Positions 13,716 to 58,655 of a stretch of DNA of 64,000 nt are shown here, piece after piece. Numbering within the stretch: position 1 is the first letter of the stretch; each line of letters begins with the position of its first letter. Under the pieces are notes generated by a model. That model had not been told where the DNA came from, did no database searches, and saw only the letters and a program-made list of their open reading frames with translations. A program made the position numbers and the translations under genes. Where the stretch lies: the NCBI GenBank assembly GCA_951406725.2, contig OX597829.1, positions 29,512,001 to 29,576,000 of the forward strand, given 5' to 3'. Source of the DNA: Octopus vulgaris. Its lineage: Eukaryota.

Positions 13716-14399
13716 TTGATGCTTTTTTTTTTAATATCATCATAGTTACCAGTGTTGATGCATTTTATTTGTTGGTTGACTCTTTTTTTTTTCTGTTTGT
13801 TTTTGTTTAAGCTAAGTTAATAAATGTTAAAGTGTTTCCAGGAGTATAACAGGCAAAAGAAAAAAAAATTACAATATATAAAATATTGTATTATATTTAG
13901 ATAGTTCTATGCCAGTCATTGATACTTACACTGACCTTGCTCATTGCTGCTTCACTTTCATTGGGTATTTGCTGAAAACTTTGTCTTCAGTGCTGTTGAA
14001 GGATAACAACCTAACTGAATTTGCTTATTTCATACTTTTTTGTTAATATAATCTCCGTGTTCTTTCCCTCCATGCACACACACACATACACACAGATATT
14101 TGTATACCCCAAAACGTTTTTTTTTTTTATTTTGTGGTATTATTAATTGTGGATTGCTTGCTCCTTAAAAGCATTGGGCAAAATGTATTACAGCATTTAG
14201 TTACTCCCCTTTATATTTTGAGTTCAAATCCTGCCAAGGTTATATTTGCCTTTTATCTTTCTGGGGTTGAAAAAAGAATAAAATATCAGTCAAGGGCTGG
14301 GGGATGATTTATTTGACTTTTACTCCTTCCTGCGGGGGAAAAAAAATGAGGCCTCTATGTCTGTGCTAAAAACTATTAACTCCACTTATTGCAACTGCT

Positions 14400-14764
<365 letters not shown>

Positions 14765-15228
14765 GCTGCTAAATATTGATGATTTTTACTTTAACATATA
14801 GGACATGTTCATCACAAGCATTTGCATCCATGTTTAGAATGTTAAATTTTAGAATTTTTTTGTTTCTTGTTACAAAATATATTGCCTATATATATGTGTG
14901 TTTATATGTGTGTGTATGTATATATATGTATGTATGTATATATAGATAGATAGACATCCTTTCAACTTTACTGTGGTATGAGGTTTCAGTATTTTTCAAA
15001 TTAAACCTGGATTGTTTATGGAATTTTCTATACCTTTTTATTCCTGTTGTTTCAAAGACATTAACATTAATATTTGGTTGCTTTGCTTCACCATTTATGA
15101 GAATAATGAACTTTATCTCCATTTCAACTTATTTCTTCAGTTTACAGCTGCTTTCTTTTCAAAGTCCATGCATTTTTCAGAATTGGGGAGTGGGGTGTAA
15201 TAAATTTTACTAACCGTGTCACCATTAA

Positions 15229-15444
15229 CCCTTTAGCAATTAAACTGGCCATATCAGGTCCACGTATTCTGTTTTGTAGTCAAACTGGCCAAATTTGGCC
15301 TCTCACACCTACCATAAAATGTCATTCTAAAAACATACTATCATGTGATTCAAATGTAGGAGCAATGAGATAATGCATACTTAATTCAAGCCAATTTGAA
15401 TAGATAAGCATTATGCTTAACAAAATAATATCAATGCTAAAGGG
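15229..15444. mobile_element. piggyBac-type MITE (CCCTTTAGCA TIR)
   Basis: TTAA|CCCTTTAGCA ... TGCTAAAGGG|TGAA. Confidence 0.75.
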
Positions 15445-16536
15445 TGAATCTGGTGTTTGTAAAAATAATGTACTTACATAAAATTGTGATTGGAAGTTGA
15501 CTTATACATTCTCATGAATATTTTGATATATCTGTAGTGTCCTGCCTTACCTGCAGCTTCTATAACCTGATAACTAACTTGGCATGCTTTGGGTTTCAAC
15601 AGCTTAGTTGATCCTATTAACCACTTGTTTATTTGTTCATTTCAGATTATCATTAATACTATAGAACATTAGCAATGTTACTGTTAGAGACTTTGGTCCA
15701 AGTCTCATATAATAGAAGCAACATTAATTGAATTAACCATTTTAATTTGTTGTCCATCTTCTTTCTCCTCTTTCCATCTCCGTTTCTCTCTTCTATTCTC
15801 TCTGTCATAAAGGTTTAGGGAGTTTTTCATTCCCATACCCTTTAATTAGCTTACTTTGTGTTTATCCCTTTTTGTATGTTTTTTTAAATATTTTTTTGCC
15901 CTCTTACTTCCAATCTCTGACACGATATTTGTAATTATGGAAACTGGAACTACTATTAACTGTATATTTCTACAAGATTTGTTACCCATAGATCAACTCT
16001 ACCTTCTTTCCTACCATAATTTTACCCCCCCCCCCTCTCTCTTATTTGCTCTTTATTTTCTTTCTTCAAAGTTGTTTTCTTTAAAAGAAAATCTTCGAGA
16101 GAGAACTCTAATACCTTCGCTTCAATAATGTTTCCATTTCTTATGTATGATGGATGTATTTACACTTTATGGTACCTATTAACTGTTTCATAGTCAAGGC
16201 CAGCAGCTGTTTGCCTTTCTCAAAGACAAAGTGTGGCACTGGTAATAATGGTTTAATAATACTGTCCTAACATAACCTCTTGGTGCCTTTTCTTTCTTAT
16301 AAATTTCTTTCCCTACTAAAGTGATTTTTTTCTTCTTTTTTTTTCTTTAAAGAAAGGCATCAAATTCTAAAGCCTTTTATAATAAGAAATATTTAGTATT
16401 TTATCAGATTTTGGCACAACACTCATATAAAACGACATAGAAATATAAATGCTCAGGTACATCACTATATGGACATGGCCCGAAAATGAAAATATTAACG
16501 GAATATATGTATGCAAACATGCATTTAGCTTCAAAT

Positions 16537-16648
16537 ACTTACCATGCATGATTATTATATTAAACAAAATTATGGTCTACTCGAGTTTCCCCCTGCAGTT
16601 AGACTGACCTTAACTGTGACTGAAATGGAGGGACCTGTAGTATTTATA
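16537..16648 (-). promoter_or_regulatory. Candidate Pol II core promoter and first exon (TATA, Inr, ATG, splice donor)
   Basis: Minus strand: TATAAATA (16648-16641); TCAGTCACAGTT Inr-like 27-33 nt downstream; AATCATGCATG|GTAAGT consensus donor at 16542. Confidence 0.45.
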
Positions 16649-16921
16649 GAGTTGGTGTGGAGGGGTGCACAGAAGCATTGAATTTTTTAGCTGCTAATAT
16701 TTGCACATTAAAGTATTTCTAACTAATTAATTTAAGCTATAATTAATTGAATACGATTCTGTATATTGAATACAAATGAACAAGTGATGAACCACACAAA
16801 CTCAAAAGACAGATGTGTTATAAACGAAAACACAAGATAAGTTCATTTTCATAGTTGTTGATCAATAGAAAATTAGTTAATTATTGATAATATTGACAAA
16901 GATAGCAATGTTTAAATTTGA

Positions 16922-17800
16922 TTAATCTTTCTCTTTCAAGAGAGTTTCTATGTCATTAGCCAAACTAATTTCATTCAGGAATGTCTGGTGGTTACCATCG
17001 TAGTAATTAATGCAGACTTTGGTGCACAATTTTGAGAGGCCATAATCGGACGATAAAGGGAGAGAGTCTGTTGGTTCCGTTTTGATTCGTAATAAATGGA
17101 TGCAACCATTGTATTTTTTTCTGGGATTGTATTGATAACCAGAATGGCAGTTCTGGATGAAGTCCCGACATTTCTGTGTCTGAAAGATTCGTAGGACTTC
17201 CGTCGTTGTTGAGAATATTGGGTGTTGTTTCATTCGTAGTTTCGTATAAACCTTCAACCAGTTTTTCTTACCTGATGGAGGGCTCATTAATGGTCGTCCA
17301 AATAAATACTTAATGGCCTACCTGAGTTTTGATTCAGTACCTTTTAGTTTCAGTAAAGATGAGCGAATCAGTAATTTAGTGTCCTGACTAATTGACTTGT
17401 AATTACTAATGAAGTTCAGGATGAAACCAATATCCAGGAACTCTTTGAACAGTTTAGTCGAGCAATCTGTTGGTAATTCCCTGGTTATATAATTACAGTG
17501 AGAATGGAAGTAATGTGGAGAGCCATCGAACAGGATCAGAACCTCAACTGGTTTGTTGCCGGTTTCTAACTGTAGGGCCATTTCGAAAGCTATGCAGGCA
17601 CCGAAAGAATAACCAGCAAGTCTGTAGGGACCACAGGGGTTGGCAGCCTTCATTATGCAAATATAAAACGCTGCCATTTCCTCCACTGAATTTCTTGGAG
17701 TTTTATCAGTCATTCTAATTCCAAAACATGGTATTGTTAGCATCCGTCCCAAGGATTTCAATACATGAACATCACCTGTTACTGGGTGGACAATAAAATG
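16922..17800 (-). pseudogene. Fatty-acid-synthase (FASN/FAS-like PKS) C-terminal thioesterase domain; 5'-truncated, one in-frame TAG
   Basis: One frame reads HFIVHPVTG...GPYRLAGYSFGACIAFEMALQL...LFDGSP...LKLKGTESKLR*AIKYL...YQYNPRKKYNGCIHLLR...DYGLSKLC...YDGNHQTFL. This matches animal FASN TE motifs (LFLVHPIEG, GYSYGACVAFEM, DGSP, QYTP, DYNLSQVC, EGDHRTLL). No introns, no start codon before the domain, TGA five codons upstream. Confidence 0.85.
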
Positions 17801-18004
17801 TATGATATATATTTTTCAATCCTTACATTATAATACTATATATAGAATGTATAGCTTCATATTTTGATTTCTCCTGTTTGTCTATATATACATTTGTTTG
17901 GAGTTGCAAACAAGAGAATGGGTACTCAATATACACACTACAGCTTTTTACTATGTATTATCATATATAACCAAGAAACCGAGTAGTTACAGAATAAATC
18001 CTCA

Positions 18005-18410
18005 TGTTCTTTTATTCCATTACTTGTTTCAGTCATTGGACTATGGCAATGCCAGGCTAACACTTCCAAAAGTTTAACTGATCATGTTGCCCCATACTTA
18101 TTACTGCTTGGTTTTATTAAGTTCTATTTGTTAAACCACTGAGTTACTGGATGTAAAGAAAATACAACAGGAATAACATCCAGACATAAACACAGACCAT
18201 ACATACACATGTATGTGTGTATGTATATATATATACACACACACACGCACACACACTATGCTTCAGCACAGTTTCTGTCTACCAAATTCTGCTCTCAGGC
18301 CAAACTGAGACTATGGTAGAATTCACTTGGCCAAGATGCCATACATCAGGATTGATTGAGGAACCATGTGGTTCTTGCATATTTCTTAACTTCAAAACTA
18401 TATCTGTGTA
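18005..18410 (-). mobile_element. tRNA-derived SINE family A (decayed)
   Basis: ACTTGTTTCAGTCATTGGACT...AGTTTCTGTCTACCAAAT...GAACCATGTGGTT. Confidence 0.7.
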
Positions 18411-18824
18411 CACACACACACAGATATATAGAGAGTGATTGACTGAAACAAAATATATAGCATTTAGAACTTCTTTATGATAAGTTTGTGTGGAATCAAT
18501 TAATATATATTTGCATAAATATGTATTTCTTTCTGGAAGCTCACTTCACTGAAATTTCTATTCTGATAATAATTGCTTTTTAAAGAAAAGTACCAGTATA
18601 TGGTATTGCTAAATTTCATATGCATACACACACATATACATTATTTGTTGAAAGTATGATTGAATTCATTAAAAAATAACTTCTATTTTAAAATAGCTTT
18701 AAAAAATTCTTTTAATTGCATATCATATTTTCAGCATAAAATGTTTATGTTCTCCACAATTACATACACATATATATTTGTGTGTAACTTATTTTTATAT
18801 ATATATAATATATTCATTCATCAT

Positions 18825-19015
18825 TAGGGTGGCAATCTGGTAGAATCGTTATCACACCTGGCGAAACGCTTAGGTTGACTTTGCTTTTCATCCTTTCAGG
18901 GTTGATTAAATAAGTACCAGTTGTGCACTGGGATCGATGTAATTGACTTAATCCCTTTGTCTGTCATTGTTGCCCCCCTCTATATTTAGCCCCCTGTGGG
19001 CAATAAAGAAATAAA
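18825..19015 (+). mobile_element. Family B SINE variant
   Basis: AGGGTGGCAATCTGGTAGAATCGTTA...GACTTTGCTTTTCATCCTTTCAGGG...AAGTACCAGT. Confidence 0.7.
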
Positions 19016-19248
19016 TATATTCAATCATCAACAACTATGTACATACACACACAAATGAATATATGGCAATAGGTCAGTGTTTCAGTGCTATAGATATATA
19101 ATTACCGATTAAGTAAACAGAAGATGGATTTGTAACGACGATCGCTTTGACTCATCCGGTGACTGTTCTTTATTGATGGGATGCTGTGCATCATATTGTG
19201 TTGCATCAATTTTGCAATCTGGGTTACATCAGGTACATTCACACACAT

Positions 19249-19280
<32 letters not shown>

Positions 19281-19409
19281 CTTGTGTGTGTGTATTATAT
19301 ATATGTGTGTGTGTATATATATATTTTTATATATGTATTCATATATGTATATGTGTATATATATATGTGTGTATATGTATATATATATGTGTGTGTGTGT
19401 ATATGTATA

Positions 19410-19975
19410 TCATCATCATCGTTTAACGTCCGCTTTCCATGCTGGCATGGGTTGGACAGTTTGACTGAGGGCTGGTGAGCCAGAAGGCAGCACCAATCCA
19501 ATCTGGCAATGTTTCTACAGCTGGATGCCCTTCCTAATGCCAGCCACTCTGAGAGTGTAGTGAGTGCTTTTTACGTGCCACCAGCCGAAGGCCAGTCAAG
19601 CAGTACTGGCATCAGCAACGCTTGAATGGTGCTTTTTACGTGTCACTGGCACGGGAGCCAGTCAGGTAGTACTGGCAATGACCACACTTGAATGGTGCTT
19701 TTTATGTGCCGCCGGCATGGGTGCCAATCAGGCGGTACTGTCATTGGCTATAACAATGACTTCATTTGCCTCAACAGGTCTTCGTAAGTGCAGTTTACTG
19801 CCCAATGATTGAAGGGTCCTCTTAAATGGGCTGGTTATGCTGCACTGGTATAGGCCACAGTTACAGTCTCATTTGGCTTGCCAGGTCTTCTCAAGCACAG
19901 CATATCTCCAAAGAACTTGGTCACTTGTCATTGCCTCGGAGAGGCCCAACATTCAAAGGTCGTGCTTTACCACCA
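19410..19975 (-). mobile_element. SINE/LINE 3' fragment with (GAT)n tail and about three 63-bp internal tandem repeats
   Basis: CATCATCATCGTTTAACGTCCGCTTTCCATGCTGGCATGG; repeated GGTGCTTTTTA.GTG.C.C.GGCA...AGTACTGGCA...CTTGAAT. Confidence 0.75.
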
Positions 19976-22056
19976 TATGTGTTTGTGTATATATATATAA
20001 ATGTGTGTGTGCATATATATATATATGTATGTGTGTGTATATATATATAGTTATATATATATATGTATGTATATGTGTATATATATTCATTTTGCAATCC
20101 TCACTAGTACTGGTGTCACAAAAAAGCACCCAGTATACATGTGGTTGACATTGATGCATAACAGTCCTCTCTTTCATCACACCCTTTTGAACTGTCCAGT
20201 GAGCCAGCATGGAAGCTGGATGTGAAATGATGATTATGATTCTTTTATTACTAGCCATCTCAATTATAAACATGGTTGTACGTGTCTCGAGAGTCTTGTT
20301 TGTATAAACGATAGTGAATTAATTTAGAATATTTTACTTTTAGGAGACAAGACTTAAGCAAACATATTAGTGATTAACACAGGAAATTCATCAACTATTA
20401 GATTAATTTCATGGTTGATTGATTGTAATGTTTTTTAAATTTCAATATAGTTCACATTGTTTTTATATGCCATTTTTTAGTCTTTCAATATTTTCCTCTT
20501 TTAATTAGATTTCTGAAATTTGTTTCCACATTTTGTATTCAGTTAAACATGCTCTCTCCACATGAATACCAATTTCTCTGCTGCAATTTCCACGTGATGT
20601 ACACATAATTACTTTTTCACCCTTCTATCCCAATCCCTTCTGCCTTTTAACATAATCCTTCTATTCTATTTTATTAGCCTTATAACTTTTATTCTCTGTA
20701 TGTATACCTTTTTTTTTTAAATATCTTTTTCATACTCATTCCTCCCTTCTGCATGAGCTTCTTTGTATACATTTCTTAACCATTCCATTTTTCTCTTCTA
20801 TACCTTTTTACATACTCATTCATGCTCAGCTGCTCAACTGTTTTCCTGGGATGGGTGATTTCGCTAACCATTGATTTTTTTCCATGTTTTTTTTTCTACC
20901 TTTAGCTATTTTGTAACTTTTCAACTTGTCCCTGCTTTAAATTTTGTCTCACATACACCGTTTTCTTCAGTTTCCTCCTCTCTTTGCTTCCATTCTTCTC
21001 CCTCACTTTTACTGCATTCACATCCCACTTGACTTCACTCTTCCCCAGCCAATCACCTTCACCCCCACACCACTTATTCCTTACCATACCCTTCTCCCTA
21101 CACAAATACTCTTCTTTACATGCACAAAAATCACCACCACTCCCTCTGTTCTTAATTCCTGTAAAACTGCATACCCACCCAGCCCCTAACTGTTCTTCTC
21201 TCTCTCTCTCTCCTCCTTTCTATCACCTTTCTCTTTTTACTCATCAAGGACTCTGTCCAAAATGTCTGAGACCTTTTTTCCTTTTTCTTCTCAAGCATGA
21301 AACTAATAATGCCTTTGTGGAAACTTGCCCCTCTTGTCTTTCCTTGTTTTTGTCCATCCATATATATATATATATATACTACATTGGTTTATGTCAAACA
21401 AAATGTAGAGGATGTTGTTTTTTTTAAAATTCAAACTGAAACTAAGAGTCTGTGCTGCACACACACACACATACACACACACACATACTCGCACCCCGAA
21501 ATTTTTACTTTAAAAGATAAATACATGAAAAGCAAAGACAATCTATAGATTAAAGAAATTTTTTGCTGTCATTATTTTGCTACTTGATATTTCCATAATA
21601 ATTTTATTTACTAAGGTTGTGCCATCAGTATTACAAGAACTGATATTTTATTTTTGTAGCTTTTAAATATTTAAAACAAAGGGAGAAAAAAAAACATAAA
21701 AAGAAAAGAAAGCCAAAAACATTGTGCAATTCAAATATGTCTGATTTTAGTGCTTTCCCTGGCCATGTCCCTCTTCCTGCTTCTTATTTCTTAACTGCAA
21801 AACAAACAAAAAAAATGTACATGTCTTTTAAATGTGACCCGGTGTAGGAGTGGTTGAGAATGCTAAGGTTTCCTCTCTTGTCTGTTGATGAAATAGATCA
21901 CCTGCTGTATTCTGATGTAGATTTCTTTGACTATGTCCTCAACCCTACAAAAACAAAAAAAAAGAAACTTGGTTCTTAAATATGAAATTGATATTTTAAG
22001 AAGAAATGATAAATAAGTGTAATGCATTTTAAATATACTGTTTGTCAATTAATTAA

Positions 22057-30428: not shown

Positions 30429-31309
30429 TTGGGTCATCCTATACATAATGCAGTTTTTTTCAATTGCATGAACTAAAAGTCAGAGGAGGATGGGGAAAAC
30501 TACCTGTATCAACTTGTTATAAAACTAGGTAGTAATTTTAGCTTGTACATATTCTTAGTGGAAGTTTTGAAGAGTGCAGTTCGATCTTAACAGTTACTTT
30601 TTCAAAGCTATAATGGAAGTGACAAAAGAGCATATTCAACATATTTTGCCTTATGAATTCTATAAAGGCAACAACACAATGGAAAGTGTGAGGAATATTA
30701 ATGCAGTATATGAGGATTGGACAATAAGCCAGTATCAATGGTAGTTCCAGAAATCTGAGCCAGAAACTACAGCCTGGAAGACATGCCTCATCCTGGAAGA
30801 TCTGTAGAACTCGAACAAAATCCCATCATAACTGTTGAGGAACTAGCAGAGAAGCTTGGATTTGGTCATTCAACCATTCATCAGCACCTGCTTTCCTTTG
30901 GAAAAGTCAGCAAATTGGGTCAATGGGTTCTGAGTCTAATGCTTGGCCACATACACCGAGGATGACATTCCAAAGCCTGGAGCAGTTTGAATTGGAAATG
31001 ATGCCCCACCCACTATATTTGCTAGACATTGTCCCATCTGATTATCATTTATTCCACAGTCTTCAAAATCATCTGCATGGAAAAAAATAAGAATTCTGTA
31101 GATGAGGTCAGAAGAGTACTGGAGGAGTATTTTTGGTCATGGACAATTGAATTTTGGAAGAGGGGCCTTGTAAGTCTACCAGATAGATGGAAGAGCATTG
31201 TAGAAAATAGAAGTAGAGTGTATTTTGGATTAAAAAATAACTTTGTTTATCTTAATTTTGAAAAATATAGAAAGTATAAAAACACCACATTATTCATGGG
31301 ATGATCCAA
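30429..31309 (+). mobile_element. mariner (DD34D-type) transposon, internally deleted and decayed
   Basis: TIRs TTGGGTCATCC...ATAATG / CATTAT...GGATGATCCAA|TA. Peptides MEVTKEHIQHILPYEF, TVEELAEKLGFGHSTIHQHL..GKVSKLGQWV, PHPLYLLDIVPSDYHLF (YSPDLAPSD motif) and FWKRGLVSLPDRWKSIVE. The first catalytic D region is missing. Confidence 0.9.
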
Positions 31310-51019: not shown

Positions 51020-52335
51020 GTATCAATCCTGCTTGAACTCCAGTCTTTCCACAAGTAACACATGAACACAAAATATGAATTTCTCATTATCAAATGTCTA
51101 GAGACTCTCACCCATTCCATAAAATTGGGTGGCATTTACTCAGAAAGATCACTATCAGGTGTGCAAAGGATGCTTTCAAGAGTACACAACTCATACTTTT
51201 CTACATTCCATCAGTATGGCTTTCACAGAATCAGATTTACTGGAGACCTTTTATATCATTCAGCAATGGGGCTTAATGAAAGAAATGTTGCTTTGCACAT
51301 CAGCAAAGTTTTTGATCATGTTCAGCATGCAAATATCCTATCCAAACATTTCACATACAGAGTTCAGCCATCTCTCATTACTTGGATCACTAGCATTCTA
51401 TCACATCATACAACTTTGGCATGTATTAACAGCATTCTTTCTGTTCTTCTCTCAATCAACTCTGTGTTCTCCTGGATTTAGATTTGACCCCCATTCTCTT
51501 CATTCTGTACTTCAATGACCTACTTGCCACCACATTCCTCAGTACCCACTCTTGAACAGATGACACAACCCTTCATTCTTCCTTAACCTTTTCTGCAATC
51601 TACACAACAAACTTACATTGAATCAGTAAGTGAAGATTTTAAGATCACCCAACAATCAGGACACACCAACCTTGTCTCTGTTAATAGCAAAAGACTCAAG
51701 CAACACTTATATCAAGAAAACACCACCACAGACCATCTAAACTGGGTAACATTCAGCTAGAACCTCCAGTCACTCCAAATACTGGCCCTCACTATCACTA
51801 AAGATTTCTACTAGCAAGAGCACATCCTTAGCATAACTATAAGTGTATCCCAAAGACTGGCTCTTTTCTGGCAGATATTTCAGCTCTTAACAACTAGTGA
51901 CGTTCTATTAGACTCAAGTCAAGCTCAAGTACTGTGCCTACAGCTGAAACAGGGCTGTTGCTATACACATTGTCATTTTGGACAGCATTGAGAAAAGGGA
52001 CAGACAACTGATAAATATAACCTCTGACCCATAAGTATTCTGTCTCCACTCTGTCTATTCTACTTCTATTATATTGGTCTCTGCTTCTCAGAGGTAGCTG
52101 GTTTCATACCTTCATCACTCAGGCACTCCCCAGCCCATTTATCTCTCCACTTGGTGCTTCACCCTTGATGCATCCAGTCTCTCCTGCTCCACCCCACAAC
52201 TCTCATTGTACCCAGTCTGTTTTCCTAAGAAAATTTGCCCTTTTGAAACTTTACTCTGTTCATGTTCTTCCTGTAGGTGTTGACCTGCAGTAATTTTAAC
52301 AGAACATTTACAGCATCGAACTTACCAGTTTCAGG
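51020..52335 (+). mobile_element. CR1/Jockey-group LINE reverse transcriptase remnant
   Basis: HQYGFHRIRFTGDLL...VALHISKVFDHVQH..LSK...PSLITWITSILS matches QYGFR..STGDLL, ALDISKAFDRVWH; many stops and frameshifts. Confidence 0.8.
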
Positions 52336-52406
52336 ACTGTAAGACCATTTAGTAAAAAGCAAAGAAAGAAAGAAAGAAAGAACGGGAGAGGGAAGGAGGG
52401 CGAGAG

Positions 52407-52449
<43 letters not shown>

Positions 52450-52739
52450 AAAACAAAATGACGCAAAATGAATTTGAGTTACTAGTGGGTGTACAAGGCC
52501 TATGAACGATGCAGACTTTCCTAATTGCTCAGAATGATGTGCGGTGTTCGGCTAGTACTATTTACTGGTGGCATACAAGAAGAAAAAAACCGTTACAGTG
52601 AGGGAATGTTTCATTGGAGCGAATGTTTCATTAACGATATCTACGGGCCAAATGATAGTGTTGGACTGATTACCAAATGGTAGTGTTGGAATGATATAAG
52701 CCACAGATTATACTCGATTGAGCAAGGATTAGAGAATAA

Positions 52740-52950
52740 TTGTTTTTAATCCAGGCACAACACTAATAATTTCGAGGGAGAGGTTGAATCGATACTTATA
52801 TTCCTAGCACTTTATTGATACATCATTTTACTGATCCCGGAGGAATGAAAGGCACAGTAAATCTCAGTGGGATTTGAACTCACAATGTACAGTAGTGTAA
52901 CTAAATACCACAAAGCATTTTGTCGGACGCTCCAACGTTTCTTTCAATCT
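52740..52950 (-). mobile_element. Family B SINE
   Basis: GGAATGAAAGGCACAGT...GGATTTGAACTCACAATGTA is the reverse complement of the family B core. Confidence 0.65.
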
Positions 52951-53314
52951 TTCATATAACAAGCACTGTGGACTCATCTGACAGTTAATAGCAATGCTAA
53001 AGGGAAGTAACTCTTAAATTTTTCACAGGGGAAACAAAACGTTGTCTTGGTTTTCCTCTCCCCATCTACATCTCTCTTTCTCTTTCTTTCTCTCGGTAAT
53101 TTTAGTTTAATACAACTAGACGCAATTTTTATCGACACAGACTACATACAAGCCTTCTGCTTTCTTTTTAAAGATACATACAGGCGCGCGTGCACATATG
53201 TATATATACATATGAATGTGTGTGTGTATGTGTTTATGTATATGTGTACACACACATACACATATGTTAATAACACCTATAAGGAGGTGCTTTATCCATT
53301 TACCAAAGTGAATG

Positions 53315-55745
53315 GAGCCTTGGTCTAGAGGAATTGATGTCGTCAGGCGGTATCCAACGTTCATCAGGTGTTTTGACCCAGAACTGCAACACCCTCCCGT
53401 TGGTGGGTCAGCAGAGGTGACCAAGTCACTGCTCCTCATCTCCTCCTGGCTTCCAGCTTACCTCTTCTCTCTTACTCCAAAGCCAGTATGAGGCTCTTTC
53501 AATTGCCTCTCCCATCCTGTGCACAGTCACCCTTTGCTCCTTACCTCTCATTCCAATTGCTGTAAGCATCTTCTATGCCAAGTGAGCAAGGAATCCCCTA
53601 CAGTCATCCTTAATTGGGAAAAGCCATGTCTGCTATCCCTTCTCCCTGCAATCCTGCAGAAAGCTCTCATATCTAGCATGCTTCTGTTCATGGGCCTCAT
53701 CACACCCCTCTTCCCACAGTTCCATTATGATAATTTTCCTGGTCTTTTCAGACCACAGGACTACATCTGGCTTCAGGGTTGAATGGACAACCTGGGGAAA
53801 CTGCAATCTCTCCTTTAAGTCTACTTTCATATCCTGTGGTTGCACCAGCATAACTGGGAGGAGGGCACTTTTAAAGCAGCACTACTTTTGGCTTTGCTGT
53901 AAGCAATATGTACATTTTGTGGGGTCTGGGGTGGCACACACTCTAGCTACACCAGTACATGGTTGAGATCCTTGCAGCAAGCTATGTATTGTTTTTGCTA
54001 ACTTTACTGGTCTCTCTCCCTCTTTCAGAAACTTAATTACTGCTGTTGCCTTCCCTGGTGATGATGTTTCTTGTGCCTTTCCTGCTCCAGCGTATGAGCA
54101 AGTGTTACAAGTACCCGATCATGGCGCAATTTATATCTGCCTTGAGAAAGTGCTATTCTGCACTCTGCCAAGATTTGTGCCAGAGTGCCCCTTTCTCCAC
54201 AAAGTCTACACAGCTTGACTTCTCTCAAATCCCATCTGTGCAGGTCTGTTGGTGTCAGGAGTGTGTCATACACCACCTGCAGCAGGAAGATACAAAAAGG
54301 TTCCAGCCTCCACAGGCCAGTCTATGTGAGCTTCCACATAGGGAGATCCCATTTAGTCCATGCACCTCGAGATACCAACTCCACAGCTCTTGATTTTCTT
54401 CTTTCTTCCTCCTGGTACTGCATCGCTTTCTGGGTCATTGCAAGCCCTTCCCTGGTGTCTGTTTTCTTCCATTGTTGGAAATAGGAAGAACCAAGACCTT
54501 GGCGACCCTGCATGTAACTCTAATGATGTCACATCCCTTCAGCCTGAGTGACTGTGGTGCTAGCTTCCCACTTCCACCCAGATCTTGTAGTAATACCTGC
54601 ATGTTTAACAAGCTCACCCTTAGAGCCTCTGTACATCATTACAACATTACATTTTGCTACTTTAAATACTTCCACTATGGATGCCAGGGGAAGTTGTAGT
54701 TGTCCTGATCTTATGCACAGACCTATTGAAGTGAAGCTTGGAGAACACCTAGCCATCTTCAGAGGTTTTTATTTATGTTACTCTCCACCCTTTCCACACT
54801 TGTCATCAGAATACTAAACAGCATCAACAACCATATGAGTCTTGGGAGCAGTCCATGCTGATAGAACCATGCCCTGAACTTTCCTGGAAGCCCTGATCTA
54901 TCAATCCTCATCAGCCACTCCTCTGCTTGCTTCACAATGTTGGTGACATTGCTTCTGTCTGAGAGTGACTTGTAAATATCTTTCCAAGGCGTTTAAAGGA
55001 TTTTCCTCTACTGATGCATTTGCAGCCTGATTTTGTTGGTTACTTTGCCTCCTATTGATCACCATGTTCCTCAATTTTGGGGGCTTAAACCTCATTCTTG
55101 CCCATTTTGCCATGTGTTCTAGTGAAGTCAGCACTCTTTCTTCATCCACATGGGTTGCAGTTGTTACCATAATATCATCCATGAAGCCCCTTATACTGAC
55201 AGCTTCCTGATTCCATTGTTGGTCCTTGGGCTTCTCTATTGGCAATTGATATTAGGAGATTCATAACCATGATGAATAGAATGGGGGGAAATCGTGCACC
55301 CAGTTATGATTCCTTTTTTAAGGTCTTGTCACTGAGTTGTAAAATGGGTTATTCTGAAATATAACTGGATGCCTCCAAAATAACTGTTGATTATTCCCCT
55401 GATATGTGAGGGAACATGATTGCAGTCAAGGGTTGCATATATGAAGGCATGAAGAATTGATCTGTTTGCATTTTCTAGATTCAGCCAAAACCACTGACAG
55501 GTCACCTTTACTTTTCTTAGCCTCTTGAATCAACTGACTGAGAATTCCAGTGTGTTCCAGACATCCTGAGAACCCCACCTTTCTGGAAAGATGTGTTTAT
55601 ATACCCAGTCTCAGTCAGGTATGATGTGATCCTTTTGGCCAGTATAGAAAAGAAGATATTCTCTTCAACACTTAGGAGGGAGATGGTCCTGAACTGATTA
55701 ACGGCTGTGGAGTTTTCTTCTTTTGGCACAAGACATCCTTCCACC
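53315..55745 (-). mobile_element. Hero-clade (RLE) non-LTR retrotransposon, 5'-truncated and decayed
   Basis: RT: EGCLVPKEENS..NQFRTISLLSVE...QKGGV and RGFMDDIMVT. Zinc knuckle CRLCGERGTLAQILAEC..ALSQGRY..RHDRVL. RLE: LKPDVVLWSEK...WEEGCDEAHEQKHARY. Multiple frameshifts. Confidence 0.85.
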
Positions 55746-56859: not shown

Positions 56860-58655
56860 TATAAGATGTGGATGTGTGGTAAGAAGCTTGCTTCCCAACC
56901 ACATGGTTCTGGCCAAGCAAAGTCTTGTGAGTAGATTTGGTAGACAGAAACTGAAAGAAGCCTGTTGTACATTGAACCACAAAAGAAACATTTTACATTT
57001 TTATATGGTAAATTCTGAAAATTTATTTCGGGGCTGTTAGTGTAAATATTCCAAGATATGCTGGTTTATGGCTGAGACCCAAATTACAGGTAACCTTTCA
57101 ACTTACCCTGAAATGAGATACCAAAATGCAGCTGCATTGAATGCTGTGGGTTATGAAAACTGAAATACATGTGCATCTTGTGGAGGTTATGGGTACAAAA
57201 TTCAACCTGGACCATGTTCCTGGCATTCGTGATTTGGATGCATCAGGTATGATCCAATTTTCAGCAGCACAGAGAGAACAAGCTATTGGCTGATTGCAAG
57301 CAGGGCAGTGTGCTCTGGTTGTTGCAAAAGCTTATAGTGTCTATGTCAGCACCATCTACCGCCTGCAACAGCAATACAACAACACAAACAGCACTGCATA
57401 CTGTGCCCAAAGAGGGCACCCCCTGGGTGACCACGCCCAAGCAGGACTGCTTCATCCACCTGCAACACCTCCATGATCACTTGAGACTGACCAGCATGAT
57501 AGCTAGCAACACTGTTGGCACTGGACAGCGACCCATCAGTGACAATACAATGTTGACTGGCCGCCAACAACCTGCATTGCCTTTGTCCTGCTCGAGGGCA
57601 TGTCCTCACCACCTGCCACCATCAGGCACAACTACAGTGGGCTACACAGCACCTACATTGGTGGCATCAACAATGGAGGTCGATAGTCTTCTCCAACGAG
57701 AACTGGTACTGTGTTTCCACCTCAGATGGCAGAGTGAGGGTGTGGTGTAGGAGGGGTGAATGCTACAGAGATGCATGTATCATGGACAGGGACACGTGGG
57801 GTGGCAAAAGTATCATGGTTTGGGGTGCTATAAGCCTGAATTAGAGAAATGAGCCCCGTGTGTTCCAAAATGTTGGTGCTGGCAGAGGGAATGGTATCAC
57901 AGTGTAGCATTACATCACCATAGCCACGTGTTCCAGCAGGGCAATGCTCCCTCCCACACGGCCAGGGTCACCATGGACTTCCTACGTCAGCACAACATCA
58001 GAACCAAGCTGTGGGCAGCTCTCAGCCCAGATTTGAACCCAATTGAGTACCTGTTGGATGAGATCCAAGGCCGACAACTCGTGTGGAACTGGAGGTAGCT
58101 TTCCTCAGGGTGTGGGCATGGGTGCCAATGGGTTTTGTGGACTACCTCATGCACTCCATGTACTAATGGTGTTTGGCCGTTTCAAACATCCAGGGAGGGT
58201 ATACATGGAATTGAACATGTCACAAACTACAATTTCAATGTGCTGGACCTGCCCACAACAAGAACACATGACAACGACCTATAGACTGTGATCAAAGTGC
58301 ATCCACGAAATTGACTTTATCAGATTTATCAAAATTTATCTCTGACATAATGAAATTTAAACATATTTCACAGTCACACATGTCTTGCATTTCTTTTGTG
58401 GTTCAGTGTATATTTATATTTGTGTGTGTATGTCTTTGTGTCTGTGTTTGTCCCCCCACCATTACTTTACCACCAATGTTGGTATGTTTACGTCCATGTA
58501 ACTTAACAGTTTTGCAAAAAAGAGACTGATAAAATAAGTACCAGGCTGACAAATAATAAGTCCTGGGGTCAATTTCTTCGACTAAAACCCTTTAAGGTAG
58601 TGCTTCAGCATGGCTGCAGTCAAATGACAGAAAAGTGTAAAAGAATAAAAGAATA
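56860..58655 (+). mobile_element. SINE family A split by a Tc1 insertion
   Basis: 5' half (GTGGTAAGAAGCTTGCTTCCCAACCACATGG...GAAACTGAAAGAAGCC) at 56860-56968; 3' half at 58410-58655. Confidence 0.8.
56970..58408 (+). mobile_element. Tc1 (DD34E) transposon, full-length ends, decayed transposase
   Basis: TA|CATTGAACCACAAAAGAAA ... TTTCTTTTGTGGTTCAGTG|TA. Transposase starts at ATG 57249 (REQAIG*LQAG...STIYRLQQQY...VTTPKQD) and includes FQQGNAPSHTAR...WAALSPDLNPIEYLLDEI. Confidence 0.9.

What the first reader, a model, noticed from the sequence alone, without database searches (positions are those of the whole stretch)
16922..17800. Stand-alone FAS-type thioesterase with intact triad, interrupted by one UAG that A-to-I editing could recode
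Seen: the two listed ORFs are one frame joined across a single TAG (17318-17320), the only lesion in about 290 codons; GYSFG Ser, DGS Asp and GNH His are all present. Known: UAG is the preferred ADAR triplet, UIG decodes as Trp, and coleoids recode extensively. Inference: either a young pseudogene fragment of FASN or a FAS-like PKS, or an editing/readthrough-gated thioesterase, since the catalytic His lies beyond the stop. The obvious nearby GT/AG pairs do not remove the stop in frame. The missing start codon favours the pseudogene reading unless an upstream exon splices in (AGs follow a pyrimidine-rich stretch near 17776-17783).
Basis: partly seen in the sequence, partly recalled or inferred. 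Interest (0 to 1): 0.7.

Follow-up and report, generated by a model that had tools for sequence, protein, structure and literature searches.

The report
Broken retrocopy of octopus thioesterase gene
This is an intron-free, front-truncated copy of the tail of an octopus fatty-acid-synthase-like gene that sits on another chromosome; its single stop codon is in the DNA, and it is most likely an ordinary dead copy, though it preserves the thioesterase sequence that the parent gene has since lost.

Summary
In detail: one minus-strand frame, one TAG (17318-17320), intact Ser/Asp/His motifs. The editing interpretation is not supported. The segment (16707-17800) is a 5'-truncated processed copy of a multi-exon gene at G000:C2:5.76-5.84 Mb. 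Three introns are removed exactly, the 3' UTR is included, and divergence is 2.9%. The parent is not FASN. It is a KS-AT-...-TE protein that groups with mollusc mo-clade 4 FAS-like PKSs. Parent and O. bimaculoides orthologue have Trp here, so the TAG is a derived G>A change. It is also in contigs of two DNA runs. A probable RNA contig spans the site unspliced with the unedited letter; low-level editing is untested. There is no unusual dsRNA at the site. One lesion is what neutral decay predicts (P 0.39-0.76). The only in-frame ATG would drop the domain's first strand. Side finding: the parent's thioesterase end is destroyed (early stop shared with O. sinensis, lost Ser exon, inverted exon, SINE, deletions). 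The copy is therefore the only near-intact record of that domain found in this genome. Verdict: ordinary processed pseudogene with a small evolutionary story.

The parts
16707..17800 (-). Whole processed copy: last ~291 codons plus ~215 nt of 3' UTR of the C2 parent gene
   Evidence: blastn to four C2 exons at 92-99%; protein homology starts at FIVHP, 17797
16922..17797 (-). Thioesterase-derived reading frame, matching aa 732-1022 of P0002
   Evidence: 88% identity, no gaps
17318..17320 (-). Premature TAG; parent exon has TGG, O. bimaculoides has Trp
17600..17614 (-). GYSFG nucleophile motif (Ser codon 17606-17608); this exon is missing from the parent locus
17519..17527 (-). DGS motif (Asp codon 17525-17527); the parent has Asn in an inverted exon
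16988..16996 (-). GNH motif (His codon 16988-16990); the parent has a 12-nt deletion just before it
17741..17743 (-). First in-frame ATG; lies 18 codons inside the Pfam domain; gives 141 aa to the TAG
17449..17450 (-). Exon-exon junction A/B (intron removed exactly)
17283..17284 (-). Exon-exon junction B/C (4.2-kb intron removed exactly)
17107..17108 (-). Exon-exon junction C/D (3.2-kb intron removed exactly)
16707..16921 (-). Copied 3' UTR; no poly(A) tail and no target-site duplication over 6 nt found
14929..18046 (.). Extent of one 3118-nt contig of probable-RNA run X4. Only 16450-17990 was laid; the ends are inferred from record coordinates and fall at repeats; strand unknown

Best explanation
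The segment is an intron-free, 5'-truncated copy of the last exons and 3' UTR of a FAS-like gene on another chromosome, likely made by reverse transcription of its mRNA and likely non-functional. Shown: exact loss of three introns; Trp in parent and orthologue; TAG in the DNA; the parent's thioesterase end is broken. Inferred: the cDNA was inserted after the split from O. bimaculoides and before the split of organisms A and D, while the parent still had an intact thioesterase. The copy then drifted and took one TGG>TAG transition. The parent separately lost its thioesterase end. RNA coverage is inferred to be passive (part of broad unspliced transcription, or DNA carry-over), because non-parent flanks are in the same contig.
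For: Four C2 exons match the copy end to end, with GT/AG at their borders and exact fusion in the window. Divergence is 23 substitutions in 798 sites, 2.9%. Coding changes are 7 synonymous and 11 non-synonymous of 18, not different from neutral (p 0.08-0.30). Neutral model: P(at most 1 disabling lesion) 0.39-0.76, P(triad untouched) 0.91, and about a third of random nonsense changes would be TAG. There is no ATG before the domain starts. The X4 contig has 0 other letters and no joint. Best duplex partner of the TAG site is -22.7 kcal/mol against a mean of -24.7 for 40 other adenosines, 25 of 40 at least as stable; local fold z -0.49. Organism D holds both insertion junctions (records 1 and 8).
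Against: No poly(A) tail or target-site duplication was found, so the insertion route is not shown. The copy has fewer lesions than the parent: 3 versus 6 polarised amino-acid changes, 2 unresolved (p 0.51), and 0 versus 2 coding deletions. The one listed difference in D's copy is synonymous. Four probable-RNA runs of one study hold all 108 sampled words, and two other studies have low-depth pieces. The indel rate and the even split of divergence are my assumptions. The codon state in D's copy was not seen.
Confidence: 0.87

Rival explanations
1. The copy served for a time as a stand-alone thioesterase replacing the domain lost from the parent, and the TAG is a recent or lineage-limited loss.
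For: The parent lost its thioesterase in both lineages examined. The copy kept frame and triad and has fewer derived changes. Probable RNA coverage.
Against: The asymmetry is not significant. There is no start upstream of the first strand and no splice joint in X4. X5's copy carries a Met>Ile change.
Confidence: 0.06
2. One reading: ADAR recodes UAG to UIG (Trp), or readthrough occurs, gating a functional thioesterase.
For: TAG replaces an ancestral TGG, so A-to-I would restore Trp. Such restorative editing is documented in fungi (PMC10776026, abstract). The locus is in probable-RNA contigs.
Against: The X4 contig has the unedited letter. No special duplex. Trp is not kept in Solemya, which has Met there (by eye). 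An edited transcript would still start at 17743 and lack the first Pfam strand. Transcript strand is unknown.
Confidence: 0.03
3. The copy matters as non-coding RNA, for example antisense to leftover parent transcripts or part of a long UTR or lncRNA.
For: It lies inside an unspliced 3.1-kb probable-RNA contig and is 92-99% identical to parent exons.
Against: The matching parent exons lie beyond the parent's stop and are broken. Flanks are in the same contig, whose ends fall at repeats. No host exon among 29 frames scanned except menin about 22 kb away.
Confidence: 0.03
4. The TAG is a sequencing error or one allele of a TAG/TGG polymorphism in an otherwise open copy.
For: X5 has a contig with the TGG letter at depth 9.6 of 27.5.
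Against: That depth matches the 9.4 of another X5 contig carrying three parent alleles, and the parent exon has TGG. X5 record 20, X7 record 27 and X4 record 13 cross the site with the window's letter.
Confidence: 0.01

Closest known systems
Processed pseudogenes (retrocopies)
   Same: Exact intron loss, 5' truncation, 3' UTR retained, different chromosome, premature stop, near-neutral divergence.
   Different: No poly(A) tail or target-site duplication seen; the parent's copied region is more damaged than the copy.
Mollusc mo-clade 4 AFPK (animal FAS-like PKS; PMC10764717)
   Same: The parent has the KS-AT-unannotated-TE layout. Its KS groups with listed clade-4 member XP_041375027.1 (87/97). 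The window's TE falls with the same mollusc proteins, apart from FASN (99/99).
   Different: The window holds only the TE. The parent here and in O. sinensis ends before the TE. The parent KS reads EADGTG where relatives have EAHGTG.
Animal FASN thioesterase
   Same: Same fold family and Ser-Asp-His motifs (PDB FASN TE, E about 1e-39 for P0002).
   Different: True FASN is a separate locus at G000:C1:93.21-93.26 Mb with its own GYSFG exon, only 44-48% identical.
Fungal premature-stop pseudogenes restored by A-to-I editing (PMC10776026)
   Same: In-frame TAG at an ancestral Trp codon.
   Different: Those are described as edited genes with shown functions; this is a truncated retrocopy with no editing seen.

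Membership tests
Processed pseudogene | Introns of the parent removed at exact splice sites | tested here: met
   3 of 3 testable junctions
Processed pseudogene | Intron-bearing parent at another locus | tested here: met
   G000:C2 exons
Processed pseudogene | Disabling lesions | tested here: met
   5' truncation and TAG
Processed pseudogene | Neutral divergence | tested here: inconclusive
   7 synonymous of 18 changes, p 0.08-0.30; no DNA outgroup
LINE-1-type retrocopy | Poly(A) tail and target-site duplication | tested here: not met
   Longest direct repeat across the two ends is 6 nt; no A-run
mo-clade 4 AFPK (parent gene) | KS groups with clade-4 members, apart from FAS | tested here: met
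   87/97 support, 11 rows, one paper-listed member; below the tool's starred threshold
mo-clade 4 AFPK (parent gene) | Only KS-AT-TE recognisable | tested here: met
   KS and weak AT in P0046, TE in P0002 and P0040, which overlap P0046 at 92%; TE lost in this genome's parent
FASN | Orthology to FASN | tested here: not met
   44-48% to the C1 FASN exon versus 92-99% DNA identity to the C2 gene; tree
Editing-restored stop codon gene | A>G at the stop in RNA but not DNA | tested here: inconclusive
   Majority letter unedited in 1 of 1 probable-RNA contig covering the site; contigs hide minority variants
Editing-restored stop codon gene | dsRNA around the edited A | tested here: not met
   (prediction only, partners within 14300-20300)
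Editing-restored stop codon gene | Otherwise complete gene with a start before the domain | tested here: not met
Editing-restored stop codon gene | Protein made and active | not testable with these tools
   needs ribosome profiling or proteomics

The most novel reading that the evidence does not exclude
Gene fission by retroposition: the clade-4 FAS-like PKS lost its thioesterase in this octopus lineage, and the transcribed retrocopy supplies it in trans, switched on only where ADAR recodes the UAG.
Probability: 0.03. Interest if true: 0.75.

Novelty: new member of a known kind. Interest (0 to 1): 0.2.

Why it matters
As a processed pseudogene it is ordinary. Its modest value is as a molecular fossil. 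It records the intact thioesterase of a pan-mollusc FAS-like PKS of unknown chemistry, and it shows that the domain was lost in the lineage of this genome and O. sinensis while the upstream 1401 codons stayed open. It is also a trap: the parent exon carries G at the same site, so short reads from the parent would mimic A-to-I editing of this stop. If the editing-gated reading were true it would be an animal counterpart of fungal restorative editing.

Tried and rejected
FASN origin: rejected. Upstream exons in the window: tblastn of P0002 finds only the copy. Missing parent exons (aa 716-809): not found in C2 5.76-5.85 Mb or by genome searches (the tool says counts are floors). No RNA holder is on record as RNA; X1-X4 are guesses. 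X1 and X3 showed no cover over the copy although indexed at 1.00; the tool says a filter drops records, so this is no evidence. X15 and X19 pieces do not reach 17319, and no copy-derived contig covers it in X11. No silent control stretch was laid, as both lay calls were used. Inverted repeats near the copy: the 25 longest of 501 do not involve it. Host gene: 29 of about 186 candidate frames scanned; only menin and transposon remnants hit. Near-length protein search found no close stand-alone relative (5 hits, best E 2.5e-18). ESM Atlas: one hit at 0.75, a lead only. Earlier findings: none. The role of the HPxxG loop in the oxyanion hole is recalled; searches did not give a source, so I rely on the Pfam boundary. 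dN/dS on each side of the stop was not computed separately: there are only 18 changes, and the Ser exon has no DNA comparator.

Full report
Observation. On the minus strand, ORFs 17318-17815 and 16922-17317 form one frame broken by a TAG at 17318-17320. The first half matches Pfam Thioesterase (E 4e-21, from residue 7); the second half matches nothing alone. Read with X at the stop, the protein is 88% identical without gaps to the C-terminus of O. bimaculoides LOC106872932 (P0002), which has Trp at the stop. The GYSFG, DGS and GNH motifs of P0002 align to those of human FASN thioesterase.

Source gene. A DNA search of the own genome gave, besides the window, four matches on contig C2 that tile the copy from 17548 to 16707 at 92, 99, 95 and 94% identity; the other 35 of 40 matches are a 50-nt repeat in the flank. 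These are exons with GT/AG borders. In the window they are fused exactly at 17450/17449, 17284/17283 and 17108/17107. About 215 nt of 3' UTR came along. The rest of the parent lies upstream on C2: tblastn places P0046 aa 198-1401 at 5,760,783-5,817,751, mostly at 90-100% identity where not running into introns (aa 1-197 lie outside the fetched stretch). No upstream exon is in the window. I found no poly(A) tail and no direct repeat over 6 nt across the ends, so a cDNA origin is shown by intron loss but the inserting machinery is not.

What the parent is. It is not FASN, which sits at C1:93.21-93.26 Mb with its own GYSFG exon at 44-48% identity. Database proteins from the parent family show KS, a weak AT, a long unannotated region with an ER-like trace, and TE. 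PMC10764717 (I read section 8, find passages, and search hits in its supplements; file 8 was unreadable) describes mollusc mo-clade 4 AFPKs as having only KS-AT-TE recognisable and as present in cephalopods. It lists XP_041375027.1 as clade 4, and this accession is my hit P0058. In an 11-row KS tree P0046 groups with it and four other mollusc proteins at 87/97. In a 20-row TE tree the window copy is separated from parrot FASN and the C1 exon by a 99/99 branch, although the two PKS outgroup rows and Strigamia fall on the copy's side. The paper scores the O. sinensis KS (XP_036356673.1) but I saw no clade label for it. Membership is therefore likely, not certain.

The parent's thioesterase is destroyed. 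There is a TAA at C2:5,817,752, and the O. sinensis and O. vulgaris database proteins end at the same residue. The exons for aa 716-809, with the catalytic Ser, were not found. The next exon is inverted and has Asp>Asn. A roughly 220-nt SINE-like insert splits the following exon (identified as a SINE from recall). There are deletions of 3 and 12 nt, the latter just before the His. DNA run X11 (organism D) shows the same insert as a loose end at 17296 and a 1-nt deletion in the next parent exon, and it holds both insertion junctions of the copy. The copy lacks all these lesions, so it predates them. It is closer to the parent than to O. bimaculoides, so it postdates that split (inference).

Is the stop real and edited? 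The parent has TGG. DNA runs X5 and X7 have contigs that cross the site and a copy-specific junction with the window's letter. X5 also has a contig with the other letter at depth 9.6, the same depth as a contig bearing three parent alleles, so I read it as the parent exon; a heterozygous copy is not formally excluded. Four probable-RNA runs of one study hold all 108 sampled words. Of five probable-RNA runs laid (X1, X3, X4, X15, X19), only X4 covers the site: one 3118-nt contig at depth 20 with 0 other letters and no joint over 16450-17990. The tool warns that RNA is a guess and that this run may be the same source as the window; strand and minority variants cannot be seen. The site has no unusual predicted structure.

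Is one lesion surprising? No. Copy and parent differ by 23 substitutions in 798 sites. With half assigned to the copy, neutral decay gives 0.4-0.6 stops and 0.5-1.5 frameshifts under assumed indel ratios, so P(at most one lesion) is 0.39-0.76 and P(triad intact) is 0.91; about 34% of random nonsense changes would be TAG. Coding changes are 7 synonymous and 11 non-synonymous (p 0.08-0.30 for a synonymous excess). Polarised by O. bimaculoides, 6 are parent-derived, 3 copy-derived and 2 unresolved (p 0.51). This leans slightly toward constraint on the copy but is not significant. Even a recoded transcript would start at 17743, 18 codons inside the Pfam domain, unless an unseen exon is spliced in.

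Comparison and novelty. It fits the processed pseudogene class, without the LINE-1 tail features. Restorative editing of premature stops is described in fungi (PMC10776026, abstract and outline only). I found no paper on this copy or on the thioesterase loss in four searches, seen as listings only: animal FAS-like with polyketide synthase and octopus (1 paper, on Elysia), AFPK with mollusc (5 listed), cephalopod editing with stop readthrough, and octopus retrocopies. The library lacks most subscription journals. No earlier scan findings were returned.

Verdict. Real feature, ordinary mechanism: a drifting retrocopy (confidence 0.87). Interest 0.2, mostly for the record of lineage-specific thioesterase loss in a poorly understood mollusc synthase. 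The editing-gated reading keeps about 3%.

Noticed in passing
G000:C2:5,760,783-5,835,565 (L061-L028): The clade-4-like parent keeps a 1401-codon open frame (98% between P0046 and P0043, 92% to P0002) but has lost its thioesterase through a stop, exon loss, an inversion, a SINE and deletions; shared with O. sinensis and organism D. It may be a truncated live gene or a slowly dying one.
   Followed up: partly
P0046 / P0047 KS and AT motifs: KS keeps the Cys and second His motifs but reads EADGTG where four of five related mollusc proteins have ExHGTG; the AT motif reads CGYGLAE with no Ser. Suggests altered or lost condensing activity.
   Followed up: no
L054:3622-4734 (+) and L053:1-378 (+): Menin exons; the 371-aa open frame ends about 5 kb before the window and about 22 kb from the copy. 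A possible source of plus-strand read-through; untested.
   Followed up: no
G000:C1:93,211,481-93,259,295: Canonical FASN exons with an intact GYSFG thioesterase exon.
   Followed up: partly
window 51059-55251, 57557-58095, 30759-31087: Decayed reverse-transcriptase, DDE transposase and HTH remnants.
   Followed up: no
window 14380-14790: About 400 nt of perfect AAT/TAT triplet repeat, 140 nt beyond the end of the X4 contig.
   Followed up: no
window 17319 and G000:C2:5,827,445: Parent and copy differ A/G at the stop inside a 99%-identical exon, so mis-mapped parent reads would look like A-to-I editing.
   Followed up: partly
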